Source of the DNA: Octopus vulgaris | Lineage: Eukaryota | NCBI GenBank assembly: GCA_951406725.2 | Contig: OX597817.1 | Location: 66,836,001 to 66,900,000, forward strand | Direction: 5' to 3' | Length of the DNA stretch: 64,000 nucleotides | In this document: piece by piece, positions 1,085 to 61,842 of the stretch | How positions within the stretch are numbered: the first letter of the stretch is position 1 | How the letters are laid out: each line of letters starts with the position of its first letter | Notes under the pieces: generated by a model | Database searches by the model: none | What the model was told of the DNA's origin: nothing | Seen by the model: only the letters and a program-made list of their open reading frames with translations | Translations under genes and position numbers: made by a program

Positions 1085-1481
1085 TTATTTCTTCATTGCC
1101 CACAAGGGGGCAAACAAAGACAAACAAAGGGATTAAGTCGATTACATCGACCCCAGTGTATAACTGGTACTTATTTAATCAACCCCGAAAAGATGAAAGG
1201 CAAAGTCGACCTCGGTGGAATTTGAACTCAGAACGTAACGGCAGACGAAATACCTATTTCTTTACTACCCACAAGGGGCTAAACACAGAGAGGACAAACA
1301 AGGACAGACAAACGGATTAATTCGATTACATCGACCCCAGTGCATAACTGGTACTTAATTTATCGACCCCGAAAGGATGAAAAGCAAAGTCAACCTTGGC
1401 GGAATTTGAACTCAGAACGTAGTGGCAGACGAGATACAGCTAAGCATTTCAACCGGTGTGTAACGATTCTACCAGCTTGGC
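1085..1481 (-). mobile_element. tRNA-derived SINE, dimeric (tail type A)
   Basis: Head gccaagctggtagaatcg with B-box gagttcaaattcc. Two ~185-bp units joined at 1254. Confidence 0.85.
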
Positions 1482-3425
1482 GATGGTAAAGCAGTAGGCA
1501 TTAGGCAGTGCATCAAACTGCAGAAATCTATCCAGAAATGAAACACTGAAGGAGGATGTGGTCCTCTGACGTGTAGAATCCTGATGAACTGTCCGACCCA
1601 TGTCAACCTAGAAAGCACACATAAAATGATGATGATGACAATGGCAGCAGTGACAACGACAGTAGTGGCAGTAATGATGACAATATTTGTGTACTTATGG
1701 CAAGATAGCATTCTATTGATTCCATCAATCTTCCACTCTTTTAACAATAATACTGGTAATTGTTTCTAATATAGGTTAGCCATATAGTGGAAGGGGCTTA
1801 GTTAATTACATTAACTCCAATATTTGAATGGCACTAACATCTTCATCTCTCAATCCATCTTTATATAACTTCTCTATCTCACTCCATATATCCTTGTAAA
1901 CTTCTAGTTTACTGTTTCTTTGTATTTTCCTATATTACTCCACGTCTTTATGACTAATAAAGAAAAAAATTATCATTAATATAATTATTGATTATAAATA
2001 TATAAATTAATTAATAATTCTAATTACATTCTAAACTTTAATATCACTAAGGCTAACTTTGTCTTTCATCTTTCTAATATCAATAAAATAAAGTACCATT
2101 TAAGTACTGGATTCAGTATAATCGGTTATTTTTGTCCCCCAAATTTCTGGACTCATGCCTTGTGCTAGAAACAGTTATCATCGTCATCATCATGATCATC
2201 ACCACTGCAGCAGCGGCAACCGCTGCTGCCCACTGCCGTCTGCCGCTGTTGCTGCCCGCCGCCACTGTCGCTACTGCTGCCCAGTGCCACCGCTGCCAAG
2301 GTGGCAAGCATGCCAGGCAAAATGCTTAGCTGCATTTCTTCCAGTTTTACATTCTTGAGTTCAAGTTCAATTAAGGTTAACTTTATCTTTCATCTTTTCG
2401 GAGTCATTAGAATAAGTAATAGTTGAGGATGATGGATGTAATTGACCAGCCCTCTCCCCCCAAATTTCAGGCCGAGCAAAATGCTTAGCAGTATTTTGTC
2501 CATCTTTATGTACTGTGTTCAAATTCTCCTGAGGTCAACTTCACCTTTCATCCTTTCAGGGTCGTTGTTGTTGTCATCATTATTGCTCTGAATTGGTAAA
2601 ATCATTAGCATGCAGGACAAAATGCTTAGCAGCATTTCTTCCAACTCTTTACATTTTGAGTTCAAATTCTAACAAGTTAGATTTTGCCTTTCATCCTACC
2701 AGGATTGATAAAATGAATTACAAGACAATTTAATCAACTAACCTCTCCCCTTGAGTTTATAATCTTGTATTTAAATTAGCAGTCATGATTAGTTTTCATA
2801 CACCTCAAGATTCCAATCACCTTGCAGTCTGGGCAATTGTTGCTTTCTGACTTCCACTGACTACACTGCCAAATTGGTAAGGACCAGTGAATACTTGACA
2901 ACATTCAAGGTGTCAGATGCCCAATCTTGATCTTTTCTTGATCCAGGACTGCAACTCTATCAAAAAGATGAGATGCAGAAAAATGTGCCTTACAAATGGA
3001 GACCACCTGGTACTCCAAGATATATAACAGGAAGTACAACAACAGCAACAATGACAACATTGGTGATGATGATGGTGGTAGTGGTGGTTTTGATTGAGGC
3101 TCAAATTTGGAAATTTGGTGGAGCAGGGATTAGTCAATGCCATTGATGCCAGTACATGGCTGGTACCTTTTTTATCAATCCTGGAGAGATGAAGGGTAAA
3201 GTTAACATTGTCAAGTTTTGAACTCAGAACATAAAGAGATTGAATAAATACTACAGGACATTTTGTCCAACACCCTAGGAATTCTGTCATGTCAATTACT
3301 TGTGAAAGTTGCCCTTAAAGTTGAATGACTTTTAATTAGTTGAGAATAAAACTAGGATATAAAGATATGACTGATATAAGCAGAATGAGGAGAAATTCTT
3401 ACAGACTTTGACAAAGTTTACTTAC

Positions 3426-6129: not shown

Positions 6130-6350
6130 TATTTCTTTACTACCCACAAGGGGCTAAACACAGAAGGGACAAACAAGGACAGACAAATGGATATCAACCC
6201 CAGTGCATAACTGGTACTTATTTAATCGACCTCGAAAGGATGAAAGGCAAAGTCGACCTCAGCGGAATTTTAACTCAGAATGTAGTGGCAGACGAAATAC
6301 CGCTACGCATTTCACCCCACGTGCTAACATTTCTGCCAGCTTGCCGCCTT
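6130..6350 (-). mobile_element. tRNA-derived SINE monomer (tail A) with TSD
   Basis: Full head and tail, flanked by ct(t/c)atgtgtctacc at 6116-6129 and 6351-6364. Confidence 0.85.
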
Positions 6351-14496: not shown

Positions 14497-14719
14497 TGTT
14501 TCTTTATTACCCACAGGGGGCTAAACATAGAGAGGACAAACAAAGGGATCAAATCAATCACATCGACCCCAGTGTGTAACTGTTACTTATTTAATCGACC
14601 CTGAAAAGATGAAAGGCAAAGTCGACCTCGGAGGAATTTGAACTCGGAACGTAACGGCAGACGTATTACCTTTAAGCATTTCGCCCAGAGTGCTAACGTT
14701 TCTGCCAGCTCGCCGCCTT
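14497..14719 (-). mobile_element. tRNA-derived SINE monomer (tail A) with 15-bp TSD
   Basis: tacatagtaaatatt at 14482-14496 and 14720-14734 flanks the element. Confidence 0.9.
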
Positions 14720-19413: not shown

Positions 19414-19859
19414 GGTGAGGGTGAGAGAGAGAGAGAAAGAGCGAGAGAGAGAGGGAGGGAGAGAGAAATAATACATTTCTAAATATCTCAGAGAGATATA
19501 TGCAGTAGTGGTACCATAGAGTAGTGTATGCTGTCAACTTAATGTGATAGTCCCATGAAGGGAATCACACTACTGTTATTTAGCCCTAGAAAGCAGCAAC
19601 GCTTGGAGAGTGGAGGACCATTGCCTGCTTAAGTTTGTGATTCCGCTGGCTTTTGTGTCATCATTTAGGACTTAGCCAGAGAGATGAGATTATGAAAAGG
19701 TGACAATTGTCCTGTAGTAATCAATGATTTAGATGTGGCTGCAATAGTAAAACAAGCATCTCTGGAAAACACGCTCTAGCATCCATTTTCGAAGACTACG
19801 AGGTATTCTCATCTCGTGGCCTATCGGGAGCGAGTGGCAGTGTAGCAATGCTACTCCGG

Positions 19860-21325: not shown

Positions 21326-21473
21326 TAACAAAAACATCTTTAAATGATTATTCTGGAGCATATTCAACATCTACTTCAATTTCTGCTTGTCGTTTTGTTT
21401 AGATTGGCGTTTTGTTTAAATTTTTGTTGAATAAAATTTATTGAAAAAAAGCTGCAATACCCTAATACTATTA

Positions 21474-22190
21474 AGGCGGCGAGCTGGCAGAAACGTTAGC
21501 ACGCCGGGCGAAATGCTTAGCCGTATTTCGTCTGCTGATACGTTCTGAGTTCAAATTCCACCGAGGTCGCCTTTGCCTTTCATCCTTTCGGGGTCGAAAA
21601 ATTAAGTACCAGTTACGCACTGGAGTCGATGTAATCGACTTAATCTGTTTGTCTGTCCTTGTTTGTCCCCTCTGTGTTTAGCCCCTTGTGGGTAGTAAAG
21701 AAATAGGTATTTCGTCTGCCGCTACGTTCTGAGTTCAAATTCCGCCGAGGTCGACTTTGCCTTTCATCCTTTCGGGGTCGATTAAATAAGTACCAGTTAC
21801 GCACTGGGGTCGATGTAATCCGTTTTGTCCTCTCTGTGTTTAGCCCCTTGTGGGGAGTAAAGAAATAGGTATTTCGTCTGTCTTTACGTTCTGAGTTCAA
21901 ATTCCACCGAAGTCGACTTTGCCTTTCATCTTTTCGGGGTCGAAAAATTAAGTACCAGTTGCATATTGCGGTCGATCTAATCGATGGCTTCTTCCCCAAA
22001 GATTTCAGGCCTTGTGCCAAGAGTAGAAAAGAAAATGCTTAGCGGCTTTTCATTCGTTTTTACGTTCTAAGTTCAAATGCTGTCGGAGTCGGCTTCGCAT
22101 TTCATCTTATCAAGGATCAATAAAATAATTACCAGTTGAGTACTGGGATCGATGTAACCTACTTCCCAAAAATTGGTGACCTTGAGCAAA
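21474..22190 (+). mobile_element. SINE multimer: head, two tail-A units and a tail-B unit, followed by an older SINE fragment
   Basis: Units rejoin at AAATA|GGTATTTCGTC (21706 and 21868). The third unit ends in the cccc aaa..tttcaggccttgtgcc tail. Confidence 0.88.
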
Positions 22191-24524: not shown

Positions 24525-24525
24525 A

Positions 24526-24925
24526 GGTGTCGAGCTGGCAGAATCGTTAGCACACCAGGCGAAATGCTTAGCGATATTTCGTCCGCCGCTGCGTTCTTAG
24601 TTCAAATTCCGCCGAGGTCGACTTTGCCTTTCATCCTTTCGGAGTTGATAAATTAAGTACCAGTTACGCACTGGGGTCGATGTAATCGACTTAATCCCTT
24701 TGTCTGTCCTTGTTTGTCCATTCTGTGTTTAGCCCCTTGTGGGTAGTAAAGAAATAGGTATTTCGTCTGTCTCTTACGTTCCGAGTTCAAATTCCGCCCA
24801 GGTTGAATTTGCCTTTCATCTTTTCGGGATCGATGAATTAAGTACCAGTTGCGTACTGGAGTCGATCTAATCGACTGCCCCCTCCCACGAATTTCCAGGC
24901 CTTGTGCCTGCCTATAGTAGAAAGA
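24526..24925 (+). mobile_element. SINE dimer (tail A + tail B)
   Basis: Junction AAATA|GGTATTTCGTC at 24757. Confidence 0.85.
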
Positions 24926-31641: not shown

Positions 31642-32096
31642 GTTTTATAAATATAATAGATAATGAACAATTTTAAATAATGTTGGATTGGGATCACCAT
31701 TCTGCCTAAAAAAATGGATCTACAAATTCAATATCCCTACATACCTCACATCTATTTTCTTTCCTCCACCTCACTCTCTATTTTGTATCCTATCTAAATT
31801 AACTATTACTTAACCATCCTCTCACACCGTCTCCGATGAAGGGATATCTATATATATAAAACTGAGAATGTGTGTGTGTGTGTGTGTGTGTCTGTCTGTT
31901 TGTCTGTCTGTGTGAATCCCAAACAACTTGAGAACTACATAACCAATTTCATTCAAATTTTACACATGCCTTACTTAGGGTCCGGGGAGTGTCATGGGCA
32001 AAAAAAATGTTTAACTTCTTGCCTAGGGTGAGCCCACAGCAATATCATATCTTCTCCACTATTTCAGTATTACGTGTTAAAAGTGAAACAAAAGCA

Positions 32097-35334: not shown

Positions 35335-35399
35335 ATTTCGTAGACAGGAACTGAAACAAATCAATCGTATATATATGTATGTATATATGTAAGTGTATG

Positions 35400-38100
35400 G
35401 GTTTTGGTATTGGCAACATGAATGACAATGGTCAGAGACTACTTGAATTTTGCACATACCATAACCTGTGCATCACCAACACATTCTTTGCCAACAAGAC
35501 ATCCCACAAGTCATATTGGAGACATCCAAGATCTCACCACTGGCATCAGTTGGATCTTATCATTACACGAAGATCCTTTCTGAATTCTGTTCAACTGACC
35601 CGTAGTTACCACAGCACGGATTGTGACACAGATCATTCACTAATAAGAAGCAGGGTGAGGATTCTGCCTAAAAAAGTCCATCACTCCAAGAAAATGGGCC
35701 GACCACGCATTAACACTGCCAGAACCTCGGATCCTACGCTGCGAAAATGTTTTGCTGTTTCTATCAAGGTTGCCCTCAGTAGCTGCCCAACCTCCTCTGC
35801 TGAAAGTTGGTGGAATTATATCAGGGAAGCTTTGTATACCACATCAATAGATACTTTCGGCATGATTCAGTGCTGGGCTCTCAGAGCTGGAAACAGTTAT
35901 CGAAGCAAAGCGTGCAGCTCTTATGCAATACAAGAGGGATTCTTCTACAAAGTCACTCGAAGAACTCAGAAGGGCAAGAAATAAAACCCAACTGACTGCC
36001 AGACGCTGTGCAAATAGGTATTGGCAGGAAATCTGTCAGAGTATCCAGTCAGCTGCTGACAGTGGCGACACCCGTGGGATGTATGCCGGTTTGAAGAAGG
36101 CCCTCGGTCCATCCGCAACCAAGTCAGCCCCTCTGAAATCAACTACTAGAGATCTCATCAAGGACCAAAGCAAGCAAATGGATAGATGGGTGGAGTACTA
36201 CCAGGATCTCTACTCACGGGAAACTACGGTAGCTGAGGCTGCAATCGAGGGTGTCAAGATCTTGCCAGTCATGTGTGAAATTGACAGTCTGCCATCTATA
36301 GCAGAGCTCACCAACGCTATAGACTCCCTAGCAAGTAACAAGGCTCCGGGAAAAGACAGCATCCCCTTAGAGATCATCAAAACCAGCAAAAACACCATCC
36401 TGCTTCGGCACCTTTATGAGCTTTTGTGTCAGTGCTGGGAAGAGGGTACAGTTCCTCAGGATATGCGGGATGCTAACATCATTACGCTTTACTAAAACAA
36501 AGGTGACCGAAGTGATTGTAACAATTACCGTGGAATATCTCTTCTAAGCACTGTTGGAAAGGCCTTTGCTTGCGTTATCCTGTCCAGGCTACAACTGCTT
36601 GCTTTTCAAATTTATCCAGAATCGCAGTGTGGCTTTAGAAGAAGCAGATCAACTATTGACATGATATTCTCCATACGCCAACTTCAGGAGAAGTCCAGAG
36701 AGCAGAAAATGCCATTATGTATGGCCTTCATTGATTGGACAAAGGCCTTTGACTGGGTAAGTAGAAAAGGCCTCTTCATCCTGCTCCAAAAAATCGGATG
36801 TCCACCAAAGCTGCTGAGGATCATCAAATCTTTCCATGATGATATGCAAGGTACCATACAGCACAATGGTTCAACATCAGCCGCCTTCCAAATAAAAAAC
36901 GGAGTAAAGCAAGGTTGTATCCTTGCCCCTACATTATTTGGCATCTTCTCGCTGCGGCTGTCACATGCCTTTGAGATATCAGATGATGAAGTGTTTCTGC
37001 ACAGTAGAAGTGACGAGAAACTGTTCAATTTCTCGCGTCTTGCAAAGACCAAAATCAGAAGCGTCCTGATCAAGCAGATGCTATTTGCTGATGATGCCAC
37101 TCTGGTATCACACACAGAAGAAGCCCTACAAAGGCTCATCAACTGTTTTGAGCATGCATGTAGCGACTTTGGCTTAGTTATCAGCCTCGAGAAGACCAAC
37201 ATCATGGGTCAGGCTACATTGGACATCCCAAACATACATATTGGAGGCCACAGACTACAGGAGGTGGAGAAGTTTACCTATCTTAGCTCTACCGTCACCT
37301 ACAACATATCCCTTGATGCTGAGCTCAATATACGCATTGGCAAGGTAGCTACTGTGATGGCCCAACTCTCCAAACGGGCATGGGACAACAATAAGCTGAC
37401 CAAGACCACAAAAATGAAGATTTACCAGGCATGTGTACTTAGCATTCTACTGTATGGAAGTAAGACTTGGACGCCATACACACGCCAAGAGTGTCGCCTA
37501 AATATCTTTCACCTGCGCTGCCTCCAGAAAATCCTTCGCATCAAATCGCAGAATTATGTCCCCAACAAAGATGTCTTCAAGCAAGCAGGAATACCAAGCA
37601 TGTTTGCACTCCTCACACAAAGACGTATGAGATGGCTTGGACATGTTAGCCGTATGGAAGATGGTAGAATCCCCAAGGACATACTCATCAGAGAGCTTGC
37701 TAGAGGCATTAGGTCTGTGGGAAGACCGTTCTTACGATACAAGGATGTTTGCAAAAGGGATATGAATGCCTGCAACATCAATATTACCAACTGGGAAGCT
37801 GTTGCCAGTAACCGTGGAGATTGGCGACGTACCGTAAAGGAGGGAACACAAAGGAGTGACATAGAGAGAGAGAGGAGAAATGGAAAGACAAGAAAAGACG
37901 TCAACAAGAAAGTATGACTTTACAACCAGCCAGGCAAAGTCTTCGCTACATTTGCGGCAACTGCCAGAGGGAGTGTTTGTCCAGGATAGGACTACACAGC
38001 TACAGCAGGAGATGTATTAGGACATGAAATGTAAAAGCCGGACTAGATTATTTTATGCACAACTCCATTGTCTCCCGAGACAAAAAGGATGCTAACAACA
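35400..38100 (+). mobile_element. RTE-clade LINE, 5'-truncated (partial AP endonuclease plus RT), lightly decayed
   Basis: NDNGQRLLEFC, WHQLDLII, DTDHSL, KAPGKD, NYRGISLL, KAFDWV, GVKQGCILAP, LFADD, RRMRWLGHV, a terminal CxxC finger and a (CAA) tail. One stop at 36493 and frameshifts. Confidence 0.95.
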
Positions 38101-42777: not shown

Positions 42778-45700
42778 TATATTATAAAAGGAAGCTGAAG
42801 GAAGTTCTTCGTAGCTTGCTGCCTGGAAAGGCGGTTTCCGCGAAACAGAGCAAGTGTAAACATGACGTGCAAGCGTGATAGCTAACGTCCAGGAAACCGG
42901 AAATCACAGGATGCGAAAGTCAAGGTGTAAGAGAGTGCGATGTTGGCTGCTGAGACATAAGCAGTGCCAAGATTTAACCTGCGAGGGCGGTGGGTCGCTT
43001 GCAGAGGCAAGGCTGTAGGTGCTAGAAAAGCGAACGTGACTAGCGAAGCGAGTCAAACCATAAGGATGGCGACAAAAGAAGTTCCATCATGCAAGAGAAT
43101 TGGTGTTGATCAGGCATCAGCGGAAGAAAATGCATGGAACGCTACATGATGGAAAGAAAAATATATATGCGTTTATAAGAGGTGGTTCGCGTGTCCTACA
43201 AACCAGAGAGCAAAAACACGTAAGGAGCTTATTTGCCGTATGAGAAAGGCTTGAGAAAAACATTCAGCTAGAATAAACCTAGAAATGTGTGAGATTGGAT
43301 AGCATGAGGCAGATAGTATGTATGTACATTGAGCAATAAAATGTGCAAGTGTAACTGCTGAAAGCACTGTGAAACAACACTGATTGCAAAGTCTGATGCA
43401 GTAATTCGCAGCGAGAGCTGAGCATCTAAGTCTGAGTGTACGAGATGAGGTGCTGAATAGAGAAGAAATTGGAATAGAAAAGCTCATGATGAGGCTGAAA
43501 AAAAATGAAAGAACAAGAATACATGCAGAATGTTCAGTTTGTTGAATAACTGTTCCAATGAATGTTGTTAAGAAATGCATGGTTGGGATTAGGAAGCTGT
43601 TTGAAGTGCAATCCAATTGTGCGGTGCTCAGAGTGACTGGAATTTGCTGTATAAGGCCACAAAACCTGTTGCTGTACATAAAATGGCGCAGAAACGAGTC
43701 GAAACCATGGTGGTGGTAGCGTTAGCGCTGTAGTTAGGTACAAAGGCTGAAGCGGTGGTCGCGGTATTGATGACAACGATGTGTGCATGGCTGTTGAAGT
43801 CCGGCTGCATGGCAGATTCGAGACAGGCGAATGCAGTAGAGAATTGTCGAGATTTGGCGCGCGCATCCACTGCGCATGCTCAGTGGTAATTGCGCGGGAA
43901 AAACTAGCGAGGAAGATGAAGACGGACGCCATGCTGGAAACGTTCCAAAGTGAATTTTCTGGCAAAACGTTGACAGTCGACACGGTGAGAGGAAATTACT
44001 TCAAAGGAGATTATTTGAAAGAATACCGTGTATTTCCTTGTAAGAAGAATGCATACTCTGTTAAGTACGAGTACGAGGCGAAGAAGACGAATTTTAGAGG
44101 TTCACTTGAACAAGAGAAAATATCCTGACGTCGGGCCAATGATTCTTAGTTGAGATGCGAGCAAAAACTGCGATTCTATAGCTCGGTCTACCATGTGCTG
44201 TGACAGAATCGAGTTGTGCCAACCATAGTTCAGCGTCGCCGGAATAAGCTGGTATGGAAGTGTTACTCATGATTATGACAAAGAACAGGCTTGATTAGTG
44301 ACTTTTTTGTTGGACGTGGAAAACGCGAAATTATTTTAAAATTAGAATATCAGAAGTCGTGGTAGAGTAATATAGGAATTACCTTGAAAAATGTAAAATC
44401 ACGTCGATGTACCATTTGCTGTGGTTTGCGCATCCAGACAAGGAGGTTATTGTGTTCTTAACGTCGTGAGGATCACCATTTTATAGTGGAGCGGCTAACA
44501 TATTCTTAATGTGGTGGTTCACCATTTTAAGGTAGAAAGCCGTGTTCTTAACGTCGAGGGTCACTATTTTATAGTAGAAGGATGTGTTCTTAACGTCGGG
44601 GGTCACCATTTTTTGTGGTGTCGGTGTTATCCATTTTTAGTGGTAACATTGGCTTAATGACACACTATAATTTAGTCAGTATGAGAGAGAAGGAAGTCAC
44701 TGTATCTGCTCATAACATCAAGAGCTTGTATTAAGTCATAACTTTTATTATTGGAGATAATACGTTCACATACAAGGTTAGTTGAAAGATGCTTATAACA
44801 TTAAATGAATGTGTTCTGTCTGCAGTCACATGTCTCTAAGTAAGGAAGGCGAACGAGTAGGCTTAAGTACAGCGGCTTGATCCAGTACACGTTGAAGAAT
44901 CAACATGCACTGAACGGCGCGAATTAGAATTTCTTTACTTTATATATGAATGGACCAGAAATCCCCGACTTCCACGTAAAACCGGAAGTTCCAGAAGAAT
45001 CTCGAACATTCTAGAAGCTCGAGGGAGATTACTCTCGTTTAATCTCTTTTCTGTTTTGCTTGCCGTTGTAGCCGCCAGGGATCACTACAACCTATTTTTT
45101 CTTTCATTCGGCTTTAGGGTTATTTTCTTTCTTTCTTTCGGGCGTTAATTATTGGCAGCATATGTATCCGTCGAACATTTTCCCCCCATGCTAGAAGGAT
45201 CTATTTTCAGCGTATATGCAGACCAAAAACCCCTCGTATACGCTTTTAACACGAAGCCTGATCGCCACTCAGAGAAATTCACCGCCTCGATTTCATAACA
45301 GAATATTCCACAATTTATAATTTAAAGACACACAAATTAAAGTATAAATTCATTAAATGAGATCTTAACAAACTCATTATAATGTGTGCCCCAAAATGCT
45401 TAATAAATGAAAATTACATATAACCATAGTAAAGAGATAAATCATTGGCTGTAACGATCAACAAAAACAACGGAGCCAATTCTTAAACACTAATTATTAA
45501 AACACGGAATGGATATATTCAATGTTAAAGAAAAAAATGGAGTGGGTTTCATGTTTACCACACAAAGTAACAACTCCAGACATGTTTGAGTCGTATTTGA
45601 CCTTATTAGCGAAATGAAGCATAGTTTTGCCAGCACTTAAAGGGTCATAGGTAACTGAGAGATATAAAGAATTTAAACTAAGAACGTTGAATGATTAAGA

Positions 45701-48865: not shown

Positions 48866-49290
48866 AAGAAGCAGATCTTTTTGAGCTGGCAGATCTCAGA
48901 TTAGGGAATCTAGACAAAAATTGAAAAGGATAATATGTCTTGGCAACACTCATGATCTGAGAGTATTGAACATATTTATTAGCATTCAGGTAAACCTTTA
49001 CATCTGGTTTCAAAGCATTAAAATGAAAGATTTATAGTAATTTTTTCTTTCAATGTCATTGAACTGCGGTCAGGCCGGATCGGCTGCAAATGATAAGGTC
49101 AGTTATATAGACCAGTCATTTATCATCGTCATCATCAACATTATCATTAGTATTGTTCAAATTTTGCCGAAGTCAACATTGCCTTTCATCCTTTCGGAGT
49201 CGATAAAATGTGTACCAGTTGAGTACTGGGATCAATGCAATCAACTAGTCCCCTCCCCCAAATTTCAGGCCGTGTGACTATAGTAGAAAG

Positions 49291-49361
<71 letters not shown>

Positions 49362-49377
49362 CATTATTATTATTATT

Positions 49378-49868
49378 TTCTTATCTAGACACAAGGCCCG
49401 AAATTTTTGGGGAGGTGGGCCAGTCGATTAGATCGACTCCAGTACGCAACTGGTACTTAATTTATCGACCTCGAAAAGATGAAAGGCAAAGCCGGCCTCG
49501 GCGGAATTTGAACACAGAACATAAAGATAGACGAAATACCTATTTGTTTACTACCCACAAGGGGCTAAACACAGAGAGGACAAACAATGACAGACAAACG
49601 GATTAAGTCGATTATATCGACACCAGTGCGTAAATGGTACTTATTTAATCGACTCGGATAGGATGAAAGGCAAAGTCGACCTCGGCGGAATTTGAACTCA
49701 GAACGCAGCGGCAGACGAAATACCTATTTCTTTACTACCCACAAGGGCTAAACACAGAGAGGACAAACAAGGACAGACAAACGGATTAAGTCGATTATAT
49801 CGACACCAGTGCGTAACTGGTACTTATTTAATCGACTCGGATAGGTTGAAAGGCAAAGTCGACCTCGG
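49378..49868 (-). mobile_element. SINE trimer (tail A, tail A, tail B)
   Basis: Junctions at 49724 and 49540. Confidence 0.85.
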
Positions 49869-50600: not shown

Positions 50601-51069
50601 AGGTGGTGTGCTGGCAAAATGCTTAGCGGTATTTCGTCTGTCTTTATGTTCTAAGTTCAAATTCCGCCTAGGTCAATTTTGCCTTTGTTTCCAGGGGCTG
50701 AATTATTTAAACCCCAAAGAATTCCCATCAACCCATGCCTATAATGCCCTGCTCATGATCGGAAATGCACATGTTATCAGCCACTAAGGAACATCCTCAA
50801 CTAGTTAACGCGAAACAATTGACAAGCTAATCTGTATTATTGAGCAGACATTTTGTTGTAGCCCATCTTTTATACCAAGACAAAACATCTACATGATTTC
50901 TCTTCCAATCAGTGGAAATCAGAAGCTGTGAGAGCCAGTACCTGCACGCCGTGCAAAATGTTTGCCTTTCATCCTTTCGGGGTCGATAAATTAAGTCCCA
51001 GTTGAGGTCGATGTGAACAGCTGTCACTCTTCCCCAGTAAACCCAGGCCTTGTGCCTAGAGTAGAAAGG

Positions 51070-51143
<74 letters not shown>

Positions 51144-51570: not shown

Positions 51571-52934
51571 ATATATATACATAGAGAGAGAGATACACAT
51601 ACATACATATATACATACATACATACATATATATATATATAGGTATATATGTATATATGCATATATATATATATCATTTATATTATATATGTGTGTGTGT
51701 GTGTGTGTGTTTGTGTGTATGTGTGTATGTGTGTGTGTGTGTTCTTTAATACAAAAAAAATAATAGAAACTCAAACTAGACAACCTTGTTGCGTTATTTA
51801 CTAGAGAGTATTTTTCATATAATTTGTTTCTTTTGTTGTTTTATTCTGCGGGCTACTTATTTCTTTAGAAAGGTAGAGACAGAGAAAGAGAGAAATAAAT
51901 CTCTGTGTGCGAGTGTGATTGTGTGTGTGTGTGTGTGGGGGGGGGGGGTAACAAGGAGAGGGAAAGTGATATATCGCTCGCATATTCCCACCCTCATTAC
52001 TAACGCAATGCAGGTCATGGAGATGTATGACGTTTATATATTTGTAGTTGAGATGAGTCATTGCTATATTTTTCCGGATTACTAATCATATCTTTTGTGT
52101 ATCTTTTTCTTTTCCTTTTACTTGTTTAAGTAATTTGACTGCAGTTATACTGGAGCACCGCCTTGAAAGGTTTTTAATCGAACAGATCGACCCCCAGGAC
52201 TAATTTCTAAAGTCTAGTTCTCATTCTATCGGTTCTCTTTTGTCGAACAGCTATGTTACGGGTATGCAACCACACCAGCATCGGTTGATAACGAGGGGGT
52301 GGGGCAAACAGACGAAAATACACACAGACACAGGGATACACACACACACACACACACACACTCACACACACACGACGGGTTTCTTCCAGTTTCCATCTAT
52401 CAATAGGCATTTCGTCTGTCGCTACGTTCTGAGTTCAAATTCCGCCAAGGTCAACTTTGCCTTTCCATCCTTTCGAAGTCGATTAAATAAGTACCAGTTA
52501 CGCACTGGGGTCAATATAATCGACTTAATCCGTTTGTCTGTCCTTGTTTGTCCCCTCTGTGTGTAGCCCCTTGTGGGCAGTTAAGAAATAGATATTTGCA
52601 GTGATTTCACATTCAAGTCACAAAACACGCAGGCGAAAAGAATCCCGTGGTATGAAGAATCAACACAGAACAACGTGCGGCACAGATACAAGTGAAGTGA
52701 AACACAACACAGCAAGCAGTTGTCATGGTAACAAGCTGCTAATGCCACGCTGACTGTTGATTGGCTAAAATTACCCAAATTTCCCAACTTTAATTCCAAA
52801 TAACATCAGATTCTTTAATTTATGAGATAAAGTAATTAGTTGATCGTACTCAAAATTCAGAGTTGCATCGATACACGAAAATTGAAAGCAATCTGAGCAA
52901 AATTAAAGAGGGCTCATTTTTTGCGAATGAAACT

Positions 52935-55916
52935 ATAATGGAATTGTCTGGCGCCAGCATTGTACCAGGGAGTGCCAGGATGGTACCGTAAAGGAGTTCA
53001 GCAGAGGAGAAACCTAAGTCTGTTTTACAGCAGTGCGACAACCAAGAAGAACGATAGGCAAGAATTCTGTCCAAGACTGCGGATCAGGAGTGACACGTAG
53101 AGCGGCACTATTGGAATGGCTTCAGACCAACGAGAGAAACGATTGACGTATGTCAATATATGGGAAACTACAACTGACAGGCTATGGTCCAACCAGATCA
53201 ATGTGGACATGGCGAAAGCAAGTCTCCGGCGGAGAAAACTGTCCAAGAGGAGCGCGAATGTGCCTGTGGATTTTAGAACGCTTGCATTTCACACAAGAGC
53301 GTGCCCAAGCGGTGATCATGCGGCGCTTATTAGGCCAGGAAAACCGAGCCGTAATAAGCTTCACCGAGGCAGCGATGCCAGGATGTGCCAGTGAATGCGA
53401 GGCATCAAACACAGAACGCTGGTGGTTCGCAGGTACAAACGGTCTGGGAGAACCAGTCGCTGTGTCACAAAGGATTGTGCCTTCAGCAGACCGGAAGTGG
53501 AAGATAGGTAAACTTGCAACAGGACAACTTGGTGGAAGTTAGATCCAATGTGTACAGAGCTGGCTGATCCTGCGCAATGCCAGTTAAATCGATTGCAGCA
53601 AGAGATGAAAGAGAACACACAGGAGACGAAAGAGTGCGTCAGCAGGTATGTTCTCTGTTCCAGGTATATGCCGAATGTCACTCGTGAACTGGGAAATGTA
53701 GTCCAGGTGGCGAAAAGCACGAGGCGAGTGTTTGTCCGATTTAGATGACAGAGCAAACGTCAGAGTCTTGTGGTCAGTATAAAATACAAAATGACGAACC
53801 GGCAGATAGATCACTAAGAGTTCACGATCAAACGTACTGTAACGACGTTCAGCTGACTTTAATTGACAAGAAAAAAGAATTGCCAAAGGTCGACTTTGAT
53901 TGTCGACGGTATGTTGCAAAACAGTACCAACCGCAGAATCCGATGCAACAACTGTTAAAGAGAGACGAGCAACAGGAACCGGACGTGCAAGCAAAGGAAC
54001 AGAAGCTATTTCCTTCTTGATTGACTCAAAAAAAGATAATGCCTCGGCAGATAGAGTGATAGGAGAATTTGATTTGAAAGTCAGATCAACCAGCTCTGGG
54101 AAAGAAGCCAAGAGGTAATGGAACTGGTCACCAGCAGTGGCGACAAAAAATGACGGGCTGAGAACAGTATTAGTAATAACCTGAGTAGGCGTAAACAAAG
54201 ACGTAGAATCGTCTACGAGTCTCTGTCGCCTGACATCTACTAAGTGAAAGTAGTTTAAGGAGTCCGTGCCCAGAATGGGGTACGGTAGATTTGTTATAGC
54301 AAAATCTCACCTAAAATCCCTGCAAAGGTTGAGATCTAGGTGTAATGAGACCTGACCGTAAGTTTTTATCGGGGATAGATTCACCGCGTGCATGTAATGG
54401 CAGATTACTTCTGCTTGTCTGAAGTAAGACGCAAAGGCCAAATAGAACAGCTGGATCCGGTGTCAACCATTAACGATTCGTTAAACACACGATCCTTAAC
54501 GAAGAATGCACGATGAGATGAAAAATTGCGGAGGATTTTGAAGTGCCCAAATCTTCCGTAACTAGTTTCACGACAGTTTGAACGATGGGCTTTATCCTTG
54601 AATGTGGCATGGTACCAGCCGAGACTGGAAACCGTTGGAGTAGAACTTGACGACCGGGACTTAGAACGGCTTCTGCTGCGAGGACGACGAGAGCTGGCAT
54701 GTTCTCGCGACAATGTGTCCATGCGACGTGCTAATGCATCGATTCTCTCCAAAATGTCGTCATGTAACGTGGGAGAAGACTTTGTGATAGTAGAGGAAGC
54801 TACTACGGGGCCCGAACAGGTATGCTGCACAGTGAACTCTATGATCTTGTCCGCGATGGTGGCTATCTGATCGAGCGAATTGGAGTCGACCGTTGTGGCC
54901 AGTATGGATTGGACATTCGGCAGTAGTTGAGAGAAAAACAATTTCCTAAGCAGAGGATTGTTCTCAAGTGGAGTGTCGCTGAGTTCACACAAACGACGAA
55001 GAAACTCAGATGGCGTCCGAGATCCCAGATTTTCATCCTGCATCAGTGTCTGGAATTTCCTTTTCGCGGATGGTGTGTTCCGACGGAGAACCTCGGATTT
55101 GACGGACACGTAATTCGTGTCCGGATGTGGGTCAGTAATGAGATCTTTCACTAAGCGTGCAAGGGGTGCAGGCATCCTACAGTACAAAAGATTTAAGCTG
55201 CTGTTGGTGAGGTACCGCATGGGTGGAAAAAATACGCATCCAGTTGAGTGAACCAAAGCGTGACATCACCAGAGTACGCGGGTAAGTTGGGAAGACTCAT
55301 TTTGTATAGAGAAAAGAAAAAAGGACTAAAGAACCGACAAAAGTGTTGCTGGAATAGTAACGTGTGTGCGAAAAAAATATTCTTACCAAAATTTTTGATT
55401 TTTTTTTTGTGTACTGTGTGCAACAATGAAAATAAAAAATTCTTTTTTTAGTCACCAAACCTGTGTTGCAGTCCGCTGGAAAAAAATCTTTGTGTATTTT
55501 TTTAAGAAGTCGTCAGAAAATGGCCGGCGAACTGGTAATTTTTTTTTTTTTTTTTCAACACGTGAGGCAATCCGAACATTGCGGTAGACAGGAACGATGG
55601 CTGGAAGTTGATGGTCGGCTTGCTTGAAGTGTCCTCCCGAAGCTGCATTTGTGTATGTACTGGCATCAAACGTTGACGGTCGACTTTGTGGGAGAAATTA
55701 CTTCAAAAGGAAATTACTTGAAAGAATACCGTCTAGTTGCATGTGGGAAGAAAACATACTCTGCGAGGTACAAGTTCAAGGCGAGAAACACGAATTCTAA
55801 AGGTTCACTTGAACGAGAGAAGATAGTCTGACGTTGGGCCAGACTGCCATTCAGGTGAGGCATCTACAATGAGAAAGCTTGCCGCTGCCGAAATCCTTTT
55901 TCCGTCGGGGTCACCA
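52935..55916 (-). mobile_element. Ty3/Gypsy LTR retrotransposon, decayed (gag, protease, RNase H, integrase; RT core deleted)
   Basis: Gag MSLPNLPAYSGDVTLWFTQLDAYF...RTPSEFLRRL, protease LMVDTGSS, RNase H ASDSAVGTVLQ..ERRYSTFDRELL..YTDHK, integrase HSLAHPG..CVKC..HIDLVGP. PBS-Trp cgtcggggtcacca at 55903-55916. Confidence 0.93.
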
Positions 55917-56239
55917 TTTTTTAATGGAATTGAAGGCTTGTGATACCTGTGGAATATCTCCTTCTCCCATTATAATTATTTCCGTAGTCTTAAGGATATG
56001 GAACACGAAAAAGTTTACAAGCGCCGTGCAATTCAATAGTCGTTTATTTTTAGTTCTCGTTCATGTGACTCGCTCCCAGTGATCGTCTTTATGGCCGCGC
56101 GTGGTTCGTTATAGCTCCGTTCACGCGAGGTTTATTAACTCTGGAGATAACAGTTGATGTTAGAGCGGGATAAGAGTCCGTTGTGAGCTGCCAGCTTCGC
56201 AGTGTTTCTCAGCGTAAGTGAGAAGGAAGAAAGAGATGA

Positions 56240-57368
56240 TTTTTTATTACCCACAAGGGACCAACGAAGAGAGGACAATACAAACACATGTGGGGACATA
56301 TAAAAACGAAAAAATAAATAAAAATTAAAAAATTAAAAAATTAAAACGTATGATATGCATGAATGATACAATGAAAATGATAATGAAAGTGAGCTACTTG
56401 CCTCACTTCAAGCAGCATCACATGCTTCCTTTTATCTTATAAATTCCAAGTACTTTATACCATATTTCTCGGTCAGTTACTCGTACTTTATATTGTCTGG
56501 TATCGTCTTTAAATCAGAAATCACCCTCCAACACTTATAACCCCTCTTAAATTTCAATATTTCGTCTTTTTAGCTTTCGGACACCCGAACACATAAGTGC
56601 CATCCCTCAATGTTTGTGCATCCTTTGACATGGACAAATCTTGCAGTCTTCCATTTTGTTATCTTATTGAGCAGTTCCTTGTCCACACCTTCAACCATCA
56701 TACACACGAAACAATTTCATTGGGCGGGGGAGTTTGTATTTCTTCTTTTTCTCTTGCTTTGTGTAGGAGGGGAAAGAGTGAGTTTGGTGACTGTGGGGGA
56801 GAGGGTATGGGTGGAGTTGGTATAGTTTGGGGTTCTACTTCACTCTGTCCTTTCTTCCTCTTCCTTTTTCTTCATTCAGTTACCACCCACTGTTCTTCGT
56901 TTCTCTTTTTTTCTTATTGCACCTTCTCCGGCTTCTTTCCAGCTTCCTCCTGACTTTTCGGCGTCTGTAGAGGGCAGTGTGCTCTAATGTGACTTTTTGG
57001 CCACATTTGAAGCAACGAGGGGTTCTGCCCTCCACCCACACTTTCAACACTACATCTCCAGTGGTCACCGTTTCCACCAGTGTTCCTGCAGTACCCTGTA
57101 TGATCAGGTCCAATATTTGGCCTTTCCATACCGAATTTTCTGTTTTTGTGACTTGGAGGACGGCTATTTCTTCTTTACTTCCTAGAAGAACAGCCGCTGC
57201 AACCCAAGCCACATCTATTTATGGTGGAATTCCCTCCACTCTAATCCTGGAAGTCCTTCTTCCAAGATAAGTGGGTAGAAGGACCACTTTTTCCGACTTT
57301 ACTGTGGTTACTGTGTGTTCTTTTGCTTTTCCTTCTGTCTTGAAATGGACCACAATTGTTCGGTATAA
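56240..57368 (-). mobile_element. Tx1-like ORF1-only derivative (half-LINE) with a SINE-like 3' tail
   Basis: LLPTYLGRR..VEGRTPRCFKCGQKSHIRAHC zinc knuckle, homologous to the ORF1 at 59430-59940. Followed by an AT-rich 3'UTR and the tail gtcccttgtgggtaataaaaaa, with no recognisable ORF2. Confidence 0.7.
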
Positions 57369-57370
57369 CA

Positions 57371-58819
57371 AGGATAAGTCCATCGGCTTGTGGCTCGGCA
57401 GCTGGAGTGGCAAGACGATAACGCCCAGTGTCGTGGGGTACTGAACGGATAGTCCTGTTAAGTTGCTTGGAGTCTGGTTTGGACCGGATTCCCAGACGGG
57501 GAAGAATTGGAGTGGGGTGGCAAATAGGGTGAAGGCCCTAACCCGGACCTTGTCTGGAAGGGCACTATCCATGAAAGGGAGGGCGGAAGTGGTGCAGGTG
57601 TACATTGCATTAATTATCACCTACAGTCTGACCATTGTCCCTTGATCTGATTCGTGGCTAAGCATGTTGGGACGCCTTCTCTTCCGCTTTTTGTGGAGAT
57701 GAGGAAAACCGTTTGTGAGGCGCTCTGTTTGCTCTCAAGAACCGCTAAAGGGTGGGTTAGAGATGCCATGGCTAATGATGTTCAGGCATGCGCTGAGGCT
57801 AAGGCACTTCTGACTCTATCTGGTTAGTGACCGGGGTCGGAATTCGCTGGCGGAGGAATCCATTCCACGACTGGCTTCCTTGGAGGAACTCAAACCCAAC
57901 CTCATTAAAAGACGTAACACGACTGAATGGCAAAAGGAATACCGACAGGCACTCGTGCTAATCCATAAGATGGGCAAGGGTAGTAGCGGGAACACCACCT
58001 CGGTATTCTATAGTGGAATGGTAGAATTTAAGAGGGACGACGTCCTAGGAGAAGCTCTGGGGCTCAATGAAGGCCAACTAGCTAACCTGTTTCAAAGAAC
58101 TTTCAGGCCGGGGTACCTAGATAACTACCAGAAATCCCTGACCTGGCAGTGCTATAAGAGTGCGTTACCTGTTCGCGACAAATTGTCTAGGCATGGAATG
58201 TCTGTGCCAGCGGCATGCCTAAGGTGCGGGCAGGGCGCTGAAACCGTTCTGCACGCTCATGTACAGTACCCGGTGCTTTCGGGGTTGATAATTTACGAAG
58301 AACACTTACTGTAGTATCTAGGAAGAGTACAGTCGTCTGCTGAGTCCGAGTCAAGATTGTACCACCACCCGGACTATCAAAGGAAGGTAACGAATGTTTT
58401 TTTATGCACAGTCGCAGTACTGAAAGAGTGTATATGGAAAACTAGAATGAAAGGTGTCGCGACGGGAATTATCATCTCCGGCCCTGGTTTGTTCTATTAG
58501 TTCAGATATCATCTGAAGAGCAAGATAGGGCTGGAGAGGAGACACCTGTCGTGAAGTATATTCGGGAAAAGATGGAAGGATGTGGCAAGAAGTTGGCTAC
58601 GAATGACTCTACTTAATCTTATCCATGCTAGAAAAGTATGGTATAGCTGTTGGGCTTCACGGCCAAGTGAAAACTTGTAAACTTTTAAAACATAACATTC
58701 ATCATCATATTTTTAAAACCACTTTTAAAAGAACTCATAAACGCACTATTATTTATTTGTAATGTCCTGTACTGCCTCCTCTATGTCTGATATATAATTA
58801 GCGTAATAAAGAATAATCG
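57371..58819 (+). mobile_element. L1/Tx1-clade LINE 3' portion (post-RT, zinc finger, 3'UTR)
   Basis: LLGVWFGPD, LSMKGRAEV, ALPVRDKL, CLRCGQGAETVLH. Homologous to 20400-21325. Confidence 0.88.
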
Positions 58820-58832
58820 CTTAGGTACATCT

Positions 58833-61579
58833 ACTTTTGGCTGCTGCGTGTTTGTGAGTAATTTGTTATTATCTAATGCTTCATTGTTATTGCACTGTTT
58901 GTTGTACTTGTTGAAATTCGAACTGTTGTTAATTTGTGAACAATTATTTTCACCCTGCCGGGCAGAAAATTGTGAAGTTTGATATTGTTGGAAACAACTG
59001 CTATTTGAACTTGTAATTTGAGCTCTTTGATTTTTTACCCTTTACAGCGTTAAAAAATATTATTGGTGTTAAATAATTTTGGCAAAAATATTTGTTGTCA
59101 ATTTGTATATTCCTTTTGAAAGAATTTATTTTTCTGTAAAATTTCATTATGGAGTACGACTTACTGTCTTAGGAGGATTTCCCATAAATGAAACAGGTAC
59201 CAAGTAAATAAACTGATAATATGAAACAAGTACTCAAGGAAAAGCAAGTTTTTGGGCCGCTGTAGGCGGTAATATGATAAGAGCTGGAGGTGACTATGGT
59301 AGAATTGCTCAAGTATACGAATCTCACAAAAAAAAAAACGGTAGAAAATTGCTCCCTCCGCAATAAATTGTACAGAATACAGCTGCGAGAACGGTAGTAT
59401 ATAAGACGTATAATATAAAGGGGAAAAAGGGTTGTGACATGTACAAATGAAGTAATTGAAAGGAGTCTAGCGCCTATATGGAACAAAATTGTGTACGTTA
59501 GCCGTGATAGAAGGAATGCCACGGTCGAGGCACAGTTTGCTAACGAGAACACAGTGAAGGAATTATCAACCAGAACATTAAAAAACGATGAAATAATTTT
59601 GCTACCAACATATTTGTGCAGAAGAAAGGCAAAAAATCACTGGAAGAAATACCGGCTAGATTCGACGAAATTTGGATAGCAGCAGCCATCAACTACGATA
59701 TGGGAGAAAAAAATGTCTATTTTATAGATGAACAAAAAAGAGGCTGAAAATTGGAAGGCGCTGACCCTTGAGGTCGTGGGTCAAGTCACCCTAGAAATCC
59801 TAGAAGGGCTGCTTGATAGGGTGTTTATAGGAGAGGGGCTGAGTGTGAGGGTTGCAGTAGAGGGGCGTAGGCCACGCTGCTTTAAGTGCGGCGTAAAGAG
59901 TCACGTCCGCTCTGAATGTAAGCCCCTCCCTAAAAAGAACCGTTAAAGACGCGAGAAAGAGAAACAAACGGCAAGGATAGCCGAAAACACCGGAAGAAAC
60001 ACAAGAAATAGCTCAAAACACAGATGAAGAAATCGACTTTACTGTGGTAAAATCCCAAAAGAGGAAAAAGGCCCAAGCCCTGGACTTCCCTCCTCTTTCA
60101 CAGAAAACAACTAAGTCAGTTACAGACACACACGAAAAAAACACCCCACACTATCCCCTTGCTAAAACCTATTACCCAACCCCACCCTAAGACGCAAAAT
60201 AAAATAGTCTTTCAATGACAAAAACGAAGTACCAGCAAGAGTCATTAGAGCTCATTACAAAGCGCAGGTTTACAAAGCCAGCGAGGACATGCCCCCGCAC
60301 ATCCGAATCGCAAGGATGGAGATGGGACTATTCGCCGAACTGAAAGGGAGATATCCCGACGACTTAAAAGATGTGAGCCAAGAGATGGCCGGTAGAACCT
60401 TTTTGGTAATTCCAGCGGCTACACCACAAAAGAGAAAGGATGGGAAGGAAGCTAAATTCTTGCAGCCCCTCCTCAAATTTAAAATGTAAGTAAGCACTCT
60501 TTACTTTGGATATTAAGCTAGGATGTGTAAATGCGCGTGGCCTAGGGTCGAAATGGAAACAAATGTGTCTCCTGAACGACCTTAGGTCACTAGATAGAGA
60601 TGTTTTTGCTGTGACTGAGTTTAAACTGAACGGGCCACAAGCGTTCTCGCCTTTTCTAAATGGCTACGAGAAATTTATTTCTCCTAGTCGGCGGAGGTGT
60701 AGTGGTCTTATTCTGGAAAAACTTGGACGTGCAGGTAAGTACAGTCTTTCTGGACCCAGCAGGTAGGCTGGTCAATTTGGATGTAACACACGTAAGTAAA
60801 CAGTTCTTCGGGTTAGCTGTCTACGCACCAAAAGAGTGTAGATAGGCTGGTTTTTACCGGGACCTGGATAATTTCTTAGTGACGTCAAAAACTAGTTGTA
60901 CTAGGAGACTTTAACACTATTCTCGACGCACGGGTGGATAGTGTTGGCTCGACTGATCGAAGGGGAAACCCTGGCCTCAAAAGGCTACTTGAAAGCTATA
61001 ATCTAGTAGACCGATACAGATTGGATGAACCGCTCGTTCCACAGAAGACGTGGACTAATAACGATAGTTCGCTCAGATCATATATAGATAGAATATTCGT
61101 TAGAGATAGAAATACGTTTAGTTGTCCATGCTTTTGTTGTGTCCCTTACACGGATCACAAGTTTGTGAGGTGTACCTAGATAAGTGTCATAGGTAGAAAC
61201 AAGGGTACTGGAAAATGAAAAAGTCTATTTTGACTTGTAAAACCTTCTGTGGCCGGGTTAAGGAGTTAGTGCAGAGGGCATTAACCGGTGCCATTATTAA
61301 AAATAGATGGTGGTGTGCCCTCAAGCAAGCCATTCGTTCTGAGTCTATTAGATTTAGTAAACAGTAAAGTCTAGATAAGACTAGAATAGAAGGGGCCTTA
61401 ATTAAGGAATTAGATGAGGCCAAGGAGCCTGACTCTGCATCCAGAGTGATGGCGGCGAAAGTGGTTTTTTTTTCCGTCATCTCAAAGCTAAACACGAAGG
61501 GTGTAGATTCAGAGCTAAACTTCGTGTGGTGTCGTCCCATCTATGTGTGATATATAATTATCATAATAAGGAGTCATTT
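58833..61579 (+). mobile_element. L1/Tx1-clade element: 5'UTR, ORF1 (CCHC), endonuclease, RT deleted, 13-bp TSD
   Basis: RPRCFKCGVKSHVRSEC, then APE motifs CVNARGL, LGDFN, SYIDRIF and TDHKFV, then a jump to the family 3' tail at ~61530. TSD cttaggtacatct at 58820-58832 and 61580-61592. Confidence 0.9.
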
Positions 61580-61781
61580 CTTAGGTACATCTCATTGACA
61601 AGAGTAAAAAACCTCGAAAGATCGCTGTCTGAGATTCCTGACAGATGGCGACATTGAACGAACTGCATGTTTTCACACCTTTTTACCTTAAGAGATATTT
61701 TTCTTCATGGTAACTGCAGTCTATTTGCCTTTTAGCTGTTGAAATATATGACAAACATATTTCAACTAACTTAAATTCTGC

Positions 61782-61842
<61 letters not shown>

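What the first reader, a model, noticed from the sequence alone, without database searches (positions are those of the whole stretch)
56240..56300. Tx1-like half-element shares its 3' tail with the tail-A SINE, identifying a candidate partner LINE
Seen: tttttattacccacaagggaccaacgaagagaggacaatacaaaca aligns with the SINE tail read on the same strand (tttctttactacccacaaggggctaaacacagagaggacaaacaagg). Established: many SINEs borrow the 3' end of the LINE that mobilises them, and Tx1-clade LINEs are often target-specific. The 14-15 bp TSDs of tail-A SINEs (6116/6351, 14482/14720) fit an L1/Tx1-type endonuclease. Inference: this is a Tx1-dependent SINE with a shared tail, an unusual pairing.
Basis: partly seen in the sequence, partly recalled or inferred. 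Interest (0 to 1): 0.7.

Follow-up and report, generated by a model that had tools for sequence, protein, structure and literature searches.

The report
ORF2-less LINE remnant with SINE tail
In an octopus-like genome, a broken jumping-gene remnant that has no reverse transcriptase ends in nearly the same 47 bases as an abundant short repeat (SINE), so it cannot be the SINE's motor itself, but both likely ride the same unseen Tx1/L1-type jumping gene, a pairing not yet proven.

Summary
The match is real. About 47 nt at 56240-56286 (minus strand) match the extreme 3' end of the tail-A SINE: 39/47 identical, score 48 against a whole-window shuffle maximum of 36 (0/150), nhmmer E 2.9e-06. It is the only non-SINE match among 11.

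The carrier is not a LINE that could move the SINE. It has a Tx1/L1-type ORF1, a stop, 168 nt and the tail, with no endonuclease or RT. It abuts, head to head, two ORF2-bearing Tx1-like pieces that end differently; one resembles tail A weakly, the other not at all. All three sit at one site of a likely Ty3/gypsy LTR.

Best reading (0.45): the tail is the element's own 3' end, and element and SINE are fellow passengers of an unseen Tx1/L1-type LINE. Rivals: a stray SINE fragment (0.2), a SINE tail captured by the ORF1 element with a non-Tx1 partner (0.25), an inversion product (0.1).

The decisive test, other copies of the 3' end, could not be run: no genome is held and no other DNA copy was found. 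The one other ORF1 copy found (a protein) shares the downstream flank, so it may not be independent. The 13-15 bp TSDs do not identify the clade.

The parts
56240..56286 (-). 47-nt 3' tail shared with tail-A SINE: 4-bp hairpin with CUUGU loop, then AATAAA and a short A run
56240..56407 (-). 168-nt T-rich 3' untranslated stretch between the last ORF1-frame stop and the tail end; no SINE body and no ORF2 remnant
56408..57368 (-). 5'-truncated, decayed Tx1/L1-type ORF1 (knuckle broken by a frameshift, low-complexity linker, likely C-terminal domain; at least 4 stops)
   Evidence: 61% identity to an O. bimaculoides CCHC protein; relatives align up to about 57368; homologous to ORF1 of piece c
57366..58819 (+). 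Tx1/L1-like piece b: end of RT region, zf-RVT C-terminus and 3' UTR; joined head to head with the ORF1 element, overlap of a few bases
   Evidence: zf-RVT E 6.8e-07; translations; about 45% identity to ORF2 piece at 19751-21330
58833..61579 (+). Tx1/L1-like piece c: 5' UTR, ORF1, APE endonuclease, then a jump to the last about 60 nt of a 3' end like b's
   Evidence: Exo_endo_phos E 1.7e-06; 53-nt 85% repeat with b
58820..58832 (+). 13-bp direct repeat, left copy (likely TSD of piece c)
   Evidence: only two copies in the window
61580..61592 (+). 13-bp direct repeat, right copy
55464..56239 (-). Likely Ty3/gypsy 5' LTR, main part: ends ...GCAACA, followed by a PBS-like TGGTGAC and gag; host of the three insertions
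   Evidence: LTR reading inferred from termini, no second LTR found
61580..61653 (-). Likely start of the same LTR (TGTCGC...), beyond the three insertions
   Evidence: inferred
6130..6350 (-). Full tail-A SINE with 13-bp TSD (6119-6131 / 6354-6366)
14497..14719 (-). Full tail-A SINE with 15-bp TSD (14482-14496 / 14720-14734)
21473..22033 (+). SINE array: tail A, tail A, tail B units
1086..1482 (-). SINE array: two tail-A units
24525..24925 (+). SINE array: tail A, tail B
49375..49866 (-). SINE array: tail A, tail A, tail B
52406..52590 (+). Headless tail-A SINE

Best explanation
The stretch 56240-57368 is a 5'-truncated remnant with a Tx1/L1-type ORF1, no ORF2 and a last 47 bases that match the tail-A SINE end; those bases are likely its own RNA 3' end, and it and the SINE were likely both copied in trans by an autonomous Tx1/L1-type LINE, not seen in this window, that would recognise this tail. 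Shown: the match, its 3'-coterminal position, the ORF1, the lack of ORF2, and the SINE TSDs. Inferred: that the tail was part of the element's RNA; that reverse transcription was primed there, at a site in a Ty3/gypsy LTR also used by two other Tx1-like pieces; and that an RT-bearing relative with this tail exists and reads the hairpin plus A-rich end. The element would be a Tx1-side analogue of half-L1 (HAL1), or an ORF2-deleted copy like neighbour c.
For: (1) The match is far above chance and ends exactly where the SINE ends. (2) No SINE head or body lies upstream. (3) The tail is the first AATAAA plus A run after the ORF1 stop, 168 nt downstream; a retroposed copy needs a 3' end and no other is visible. 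(4) It is more diverged from the SINE than SINE tails are from each other: mean 77% (73-81) against 91.5% (81-98) for 9 of 10 copies, copy 1086 left out for an internal deletion. The ORF1 differs from its one known relative by only about 9% at DNA level (156/191 aa, simulation). Eight differences in 47 have p 0.0008 at 4.3% decay, 0.006 at 6%, 0.06 at 9%. (5) A chance tail-A end within 170 nt on the same strand has probability about 1% for one given point. (6) Tail A weakly resembles the 3' end of ORF2-bearing piece b: end-anchored 2-4 of 2000 shuffles for SINE tails and 28 of 2000 for this tail; the 3 tail-B controls show nothing. (7) Piece c kept only its last about 60 nt after an internal deletion and has a 13-bp direct repeat, in the range of the SINE TSDs. 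(8) CATCTC follows this tail 1 nt downstream and also closes the repeat after piece c on the other strand, and TAGGTA lies at 7 of 10 tail-A junctions and at both b and c ends. Items 6 and 8 were noticed after the fact.
Against: No RT-bearing element with tail A was seen. Piece c's end has no similarity to tail A (423-1016 of 1000-2000 shuffles as good), and b's local similarity is weak (5, 12, 17, 40 and 133 of 1000 for five SINE copies). b and c fold a different hairpin loop. The element has no TSD. The hairpin is not unusually stable (z -0.77 to +0.80), and this tail's predicted minimum-energy fold uses a different, longer pairing. The CUUGU hairpin is shared with tail-B SINEs that end in (ATT)n, which fits a SINE-borne tail. 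A SINE array sits directly behind another Tx1-like piece at 21473 on the same strand, so adjacency happens. At 10-12% decay the divergence argument fails (p 0.09-0.20). The only other ORF1 copy shares the downstream flank and may stem from the same insertion. The ORF1 C-terminal domain did not score against a profile of relatives, so the ORF1 end is placed by position only. No RT tree was made, so 'Tx1' rests on motifs.
Confidence: 0.45

Rival explanations
1. Captured tail. The tail belongs to the element's RNA but came from the SINE, by a template switch during one insertion or in the master copy. The SINE's true partner may be another clade (for example Dong/R4), and the ORF1-only element would then hitch-hike on that LINE.
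For: Tails A and B share a CUUGU-loop hairpin with changes on both sides at 3 of 4 pairs, so the hairpin may be old SINE property. Tail-B copies end in (ATT)n and one also has a microsatellite at its 5' side. ORF2-bearing b and c lack tail A. Dong-R4 is the most active LINE group listed for O. vulgaris (PMC13282606 Table 1). That Dong targets TAA repeats and R4 makes 13-bp TSDs is recalled, not tested.
Against: The covariation is essentially one A-versus-B contrast among related sequences, on a structure chosen by eye. Tail A has no microsatellite and resembles b's end weakly while tail B does not. A one-off switch should leave a tail as SINE-like as other SINE copies.
Confidence: 0.25
2. Stray SINE piece. 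A 47-nt, 5'-truncated, older SINE fragment happens to lie at the end of a decayed Tx1-like ORF1 remnant.
For: Tail-A ends are common (10 in 64 kb). A SINE array directly follows another Tx1-like piece. Divergent tail-A variants exist (copy 1086). Several element ends in the window were open to such a coincidence.
Against: About 1% chance per element end. It would be the shortest and most diverged tail-A piece (8-10 differences against 0-4). The ORF1 element would be left with no 3' end of its own. No TSD flanks the 47 nt (searched the left flank only).
Confidence: 0.2
3. Inversion product or internal site. The ORF1 piece and piece b are one twin-primed insertion, or the element runs past 56240, so the 'tail' is internal to a longer RNA.
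For: Head-to-head junction with a few bases of overlap at about 57366-57371. The other ORF1 copy is linked to the same sequence about 260 nt beyond the tail.
Against: No TSD brackets the pair. It needs a deletion of about 2 kb at the inversion point. b's end is 85% like c's, whose ORF1 is distant from this one and is followed by ORF2 within about 20 nt. The sequence beyond the tail reads as a Ty3/gypsy LTR.
Confidence: 0.1

Closest known systems
SINE/LINE pairs with an L1-clade tail: maize ZmSINE2/3 with LINE1-1_ZM, Chlamydomonas SINEX-3_CR with L1-1_CR (PMC3747384 passages and Table 1; PMC3472496 passages)
   Same: tRNA-type SINE whose last tens of bases match an L1-group element; hairpin plus A-rich end
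   Different: There the LINE is an autonomous family with many copies. Here there is one ORF2-less copy, in an animal. [quoted passage not shown]
SINEU with Tx1-Mar in crocodilians (PMC4494074 passages and section 16)
   Same: SINE likely moved by Tx1-clade LINEs that pile into another transposon
   Different: SINEU has snRNA heads, and the link was argued from shared target, age and 5' heads, not from a shared 3' tail in the parts I read.
HAL1, half-L1 (PMC5753468 passages)
   Same: Non-autonomous, ORF1 only
   Different: Described from mammalian L1 and as multi-copy families. Here the ORF1 is CCHC-type and copy number is unknown.
Molluscan SINE superfamilies with exchanged tails (PMC4824008 passages; PMC11481361 passages)
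   Same: One SINE body with several tails (A, B); 35-61 bp LINE-derived tails at 72-95% identity; tandem SINE arrays
   Different: Partners found in bivalves are CR1, CR1-Zenon, L2 and Nimb; Tx1 is not mentioned in PMC11481361 (0 occurrences).
Octopus SINEs OK, OR1, OR2 (named in PMC4824008, PMC4758252 and a supplement of PMC9115989)
   Same: tRNA-type octopus SINEs
   Different: No sequence was available to compare, so identity is untested; the window's SINE may well be one of them or a routine library entry.

Membership tests
SINE/LINE shared-tail pair | 3'-coterminal sequence homology above chance | tested here: met
SINE/LINE shared-tail pair | The tail-sharing element encodes endonuclease and RT | tested here: not met
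   No ORF2 between ORF1 and tail; ORF2-bearing b and c end differently
SINE/LINE shared-tail pair | Tail present in several independent LINE copies | not testable with these tools
   No genome; no read or contig data on the locus; no DNA relatives in the three collections
SINE/LINE shared-tail pair | Shared stem-loop with compensatory change | tested here: inconclusive
   4-bp stem pairs in 90.9% of 44 cells; this tail keeps it by one C-G to U-G change; not more stable than shuffles; also in tail B
SINE/LINE shared-tail pair | Trans-mobilisation shown | not testable with these tools
   needs a cell assay
Tx1 clade | ORF1 with RNA-binding domains and CCHC knuckle | tested here: met
   Relative P0002 has zf-CCHC; a relative's nearest Atlas clusters are CCHC/ZCCHC3-like; this copy itself has no Pfam hit and a frameshifted knuckle
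Tx1 clade | ORF2 with APE, RT and C-terminal zinc finger | tested here: not met
   Absent from this element; present in pieces in b, c and 19751-21330
Tx1 clade | Placement in the Tx1 clade by RT tree | not testable with these tools
   No RT in the element and no reference RTs available; L1 versus Tx1 is not resolved
Tx1 clade | Target-sequence preference | tested here: inconclusive
   Three pieces at one LTR site, shared short motifs at junctions; one locus, noticed after the fact
HAL1-type ORF1-only element | ORF1 followed directly by 3' UTR and tail | tested here: met
HAL1-type ORF1-only element | Amplified as its own family at independent sites | tested here: inconclusive
   One other copy (P0056, 156/191 aa) but with the same downstream flank
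tRNA-derived SINE | Multi-copy, short, with TSDs | tested here: met
tRNA-derived SINE | tRNA-related head with A and B boxes | tested here: inconclusive
   Box-like motifs seen by eye against a recalled consensus; ARAGORN 0; no tRNA hit in Rfam
OK/OR1/OR2 or MetaSINE | Sequence match to the family consensus or central domain | not testable with these tools
   Consensus not found in readable supplements (file 1 of each not searched). The likeness of the body to the Meta domain is recalled only.

The most novel reading that the evidence does not exclude
The octopus tail-A SINE is mobilised by a Tx1-clade LINE through strict recognition of a shared 3' hairpin tail, and that LINE also supports an ORF1-only half-element family that homes to a Ty3/gypsy LTR, while the SINE itself inserts into its own head. 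This would be an animal Tx1/tRNA-SINE pair with a common tail, absent from the pair lists I read.
Probability: 0.3. Interest if true: 0.62.

Novelty: new variant of a known kind. Interest (0 to 1): 0.4.

Why it matters
SINEs make up 11.6% of the O. vulgaris assembly, and L1-Tx1 has 13 recently active families there (PMC13282606). None of the papers I read names the LINE that moves octopus SINEs. L1-group LINEs almost never share a tail with a SINE (3 of 58 pairs, none Tx1; PMC3747384, PMC3472496), so a true pair would show strict 3'-end recognition in an animal Tx1 and name the motor of a large genome expansion. It would also give a 47-nt signal that can be tested directly. As it stands it is a single-locus lead, and the element found cannot be the motor.

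Tried and rejected
Other copies of the 3' end. No genome is held. 20 of 24 listed runs hold part of 55700-61800, with no RNA holder listed; no reads or contigs were laid, so these shares, including the 0.06 rows, are not used as evidence. ORF1 scans found no relative in metagenome, genome or viral contigs. The tail pattern gave 0, 0 and 3 matches; the 3 are bacterial contigs that share only 20-30 nt with the window and are treated as chance. The O. vulgaris transcriptome supplement of PMC9115989 could not be read (84 characters held); two more of its files were too large and one was not searched.

Protein searches. One hit each for the N- and C-terminal ORF1 parts among longer proteins, none among near-length proteins for the C-terminal part. 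None of the 150 fetched ORF1 relatives also matched the window's ORF2 pieces. A C-terminal profile from 8 relatives did not detect this ORF1's end. PDB searches of two ORF2 pieces were blank. The Atlas search of piece b gave only zf-RVT clusters.

Rejected. The RTE-like LINE at 35355-37917 as tail donor (a 9-base match only). Homology of the upper 3' UTR to b's UTR or to c's ORF1/ORF2 junction (362 and 444 of 1000 shuffles). P0056 as an independent copy (shared flank). Younger tail-A units inside older tail-B hosts (body identities 0.88 against 0.85-0.91, no age gap).

Literature. Nine searches found no octopus SINE-Tx1 tail pair. Ohshima and Okada 1994, Repbase/Dfam entries and the 2015 octopus genome paper (not held) were not seen and may already name this SINE or pair. 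Earlier-finding look-ups by place and sequence were empty.

Full report
Setting. ORF1 relatives are named from Octopus bimaculoides, O. sinensis, O. vulgaris and Argonauta, so the window is octopus-like. No whole genome is held.

Observation. The SINE runs on the minus strand at 6130-6350 and 14497-14719, and so does the element, so the match joins two 3' ends. It covers about 47 nt with 39 identities and score 48; no shuffle reached it (0 of 2000 locally, 0 of 150 on the whole window, maximum 36). A SINE-only profile finds it at E 2.9e-06, the next non-SINE hit being E 1.2. It is the only one of 11 motif matches that is not a SINE end. The TSDs are 13 and 15 bp.

Anatomy. Reading the minus strand from 57368 gives a 5'-truncated ORF1: 61% identical over 106 aa to P0002, a CCHC protein, and homologous to ORF1 of piece c. 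A linker and a likely C-terminal domain follow, then a stop at 56408-56410, 168 nt of T-rich sequence, and the tail ending in AATAAA and a short A run at 56240. There is no ORF2 remnant and no SINE body upstream of the tail. The element therefore cannot supply reverse transcriptase. At about 57366 it abuts, head to head, piece b (RT end, zf-RVT, 3' UTR). Piece c follows (ORF1, APE, then a jump to the last about 60 nt), bounded by a 13-bp direct repeat found only twice in the window. The flanks read as a Ty3/gypsy 5' LTR, from TGTCGC at 61653 to GCAACA at 55464, with a PBS-like site and gag beyond. This is inferred from the termini; no second LTR was found.

For a true shared tail. The match stops where the SINE stops and is the first poly(A)-type end after ORF1. 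It is more distant from SINE tails (mean 77%) than they are from each other (91.5%; 9 of 10 copies), with 8 differences in the best alignment or 10 in the multiple alignment against 0-4 for SINE copies. The ORF1 is about 9% from its one known relative. Eight differences are unlikely at 4-6% decay (p 0.0008-0.006) and borderline at 9% (p 0.06). A chance neighbour has about 1% probability per element end. Tail A weakly resembles b's 3' end and tail B does not. Short motifs recur at the junctions: CATCTC just after this tail and at c's end on the other strand, and TAGGTA at 7 of 10 tail-A ends and at b and c. Six of those seven are array junctions that may not be independent. All of these motif points were noticed after the fact.

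Against. No RT-bearing element with tail A was seen. c shows no similarity and b's is weak (5-133 of 1000 shuffles over five copies). The element has no TSD. The hairpin is not more stable than shuffles. Its CUUGU loop is shared with (ATT)n-ended tail-B SINEs, with two-sided changes at 3 of 4 pairs (11 distinct rows, structure chosen by eye), so the tail could be SINE-borne. A SINE array lies right behind another Tx1-like piece at 21473. At 10-12% decay the age argument fails. The second ORF1 copy, in the unnamed gene model P0056, continues into 19 residues also encoded about 260 nt beyond the tail (17 of 19 identical). The rest of P0056 is a Helitron with no match in this window, so it is probably another locus. 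That fits repeated targeting of this LTR, but equally one insertion copied with the LTR, or an orthologous site. TSD length does not single out L1/Tx1 (recalled), and the clade call rests on motifs, not a tree.

What could not be tested. Other DNA copies: the collections gave none, no reads or contigs were laid on the locus, and the transcriptome supplement of PMC9115989 was unreadable. Unseen supplements (file 1 of PMC4824008 and of PMC4758252; several files of PMC9115989) could hold the SINE consensus or copies of the element.

Mechanism. Most likely (0.45) the tail is the element's own 3' end, and element and SINE are fellow passengers of an unseen Tx1/L1-type LINE that primes reverse transcription at a hairpin plus A-rich end and leaves 13-15 bp TSDs. 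Rivals are a SINE tail captured by the ORF1 element with a non-Tx1 partner (0.25), a stray SINE fragment (0.2), and an inversion or internal site (0.1). The tail is part of the element's RNA in the first two, together about 0.7.

Comparison. It works like a strict SINE/LINE tail pair but fails the membership test on the RT and is untested on copy number. Ohshima's table has 3 L1-tailed SINEs in 58 pairs and no Tx1 (PMC3747384: passages and the first part of the tables section; PMC3472496: passages). SINEU is Tx1-linked through target and head (PMC4494074: passages and section 16). HAL1 is the ORF1-only precedent (PMC5753468: passages). Bivalve SINE partners are CR1, CR1-Zenon, L2 and Nimb (PMC11481361, PMC4824008, PMC4758252: passages). 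Also seen: PMC13282606 (first third of the text and supplement passages), PMC8967140 (passages and supplement search), PMC5786205 and PMC3531059 (passages), PMC9115989 (passages and part of the supplements).

Verdict. A real and well-placed sequence match, an overstated interpretation, and a useful lead that one genome-wide search would settle. Interest 0.40; most novel reading probability 0.3, interest 0.62 if true.

Noticed in passing
window 1254/1255, 21705/21706, 21867/21868, 24756/24757, 49540/49541, 49724/49725: In 6 of 6 array junctions after tail A, the next SINE unit is headless and starts at the same base (GGTATTTCG). Either the SINE inserts into its own head with a seamless 5' join, or arrays spread as multimers. 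No age gap between units.
   Followed up: partly
window 55464-61653: Three Tx1/L1-like pieces are stacked at one site about 60-75 nt from the start of a likely Ty3/gypsy LTR; the site is quasi-palindromic (GAGATG ... CATCTC). Possible targeting of an LTR.
   Followed up: partly
window 58833-61579: Piece c lost most of ORF2 but kept exactly the last about 60 nt and a perfect 13-bp flanking repeat, which may mark the minimal 3' signal.
   Followed up: partly
window 22003-22033, 49262-49330, 49330-49405, 51040-51110, 572-602: Tail-B SINEs share the CUUGU-loop hairpin with tail A through swapped stem pairs; several end in (ATT)n or (AAT)n repeats, which suggests a different partner LINE.
   Followed up: partly
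window 55577-55860 and 43889-44155: The LTR-like flank and a second region share about 290 nt (80% over the best 192 nt) encoding a short unknown protein with no Pfam match, followed by GGTCACCATTTT-type repeats.
   Followed up: partly
window 53100-55303 (minus): Decayed Ty3/gypsy gag-pol remnant (RT_RNaseH, DUF7041); no 3' LTR found.
   Followed up: no
window 19751-21472 (plus): Fourth Tx1/L1-like ORF2 piece, lacking its own C-terminus and 3' end, followed directly by a SINE array.
   Followed up: partly
window 35355-37917 (plus): Long RTE-like LINE remnant with APE and RT (clade by recalled motifs); its end does not carry tail A.
   Followed up: partly
window 31900-33900: GC-rich tandem repeat that keeps long open frames on both strands (up to 472 aa).
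   Followed up: no
window 17396-18574 (minus): Tigger/pogo-like DDE_1 transposase remnant (E 1.2e-29; family name recalled).
   Followed up: no
window 28967-29296 and 31111-31440: Two identical 109-aa frames 2144 nt apart, pointing to a recent local duplication or an assembly duplicate.
   Followed up: no
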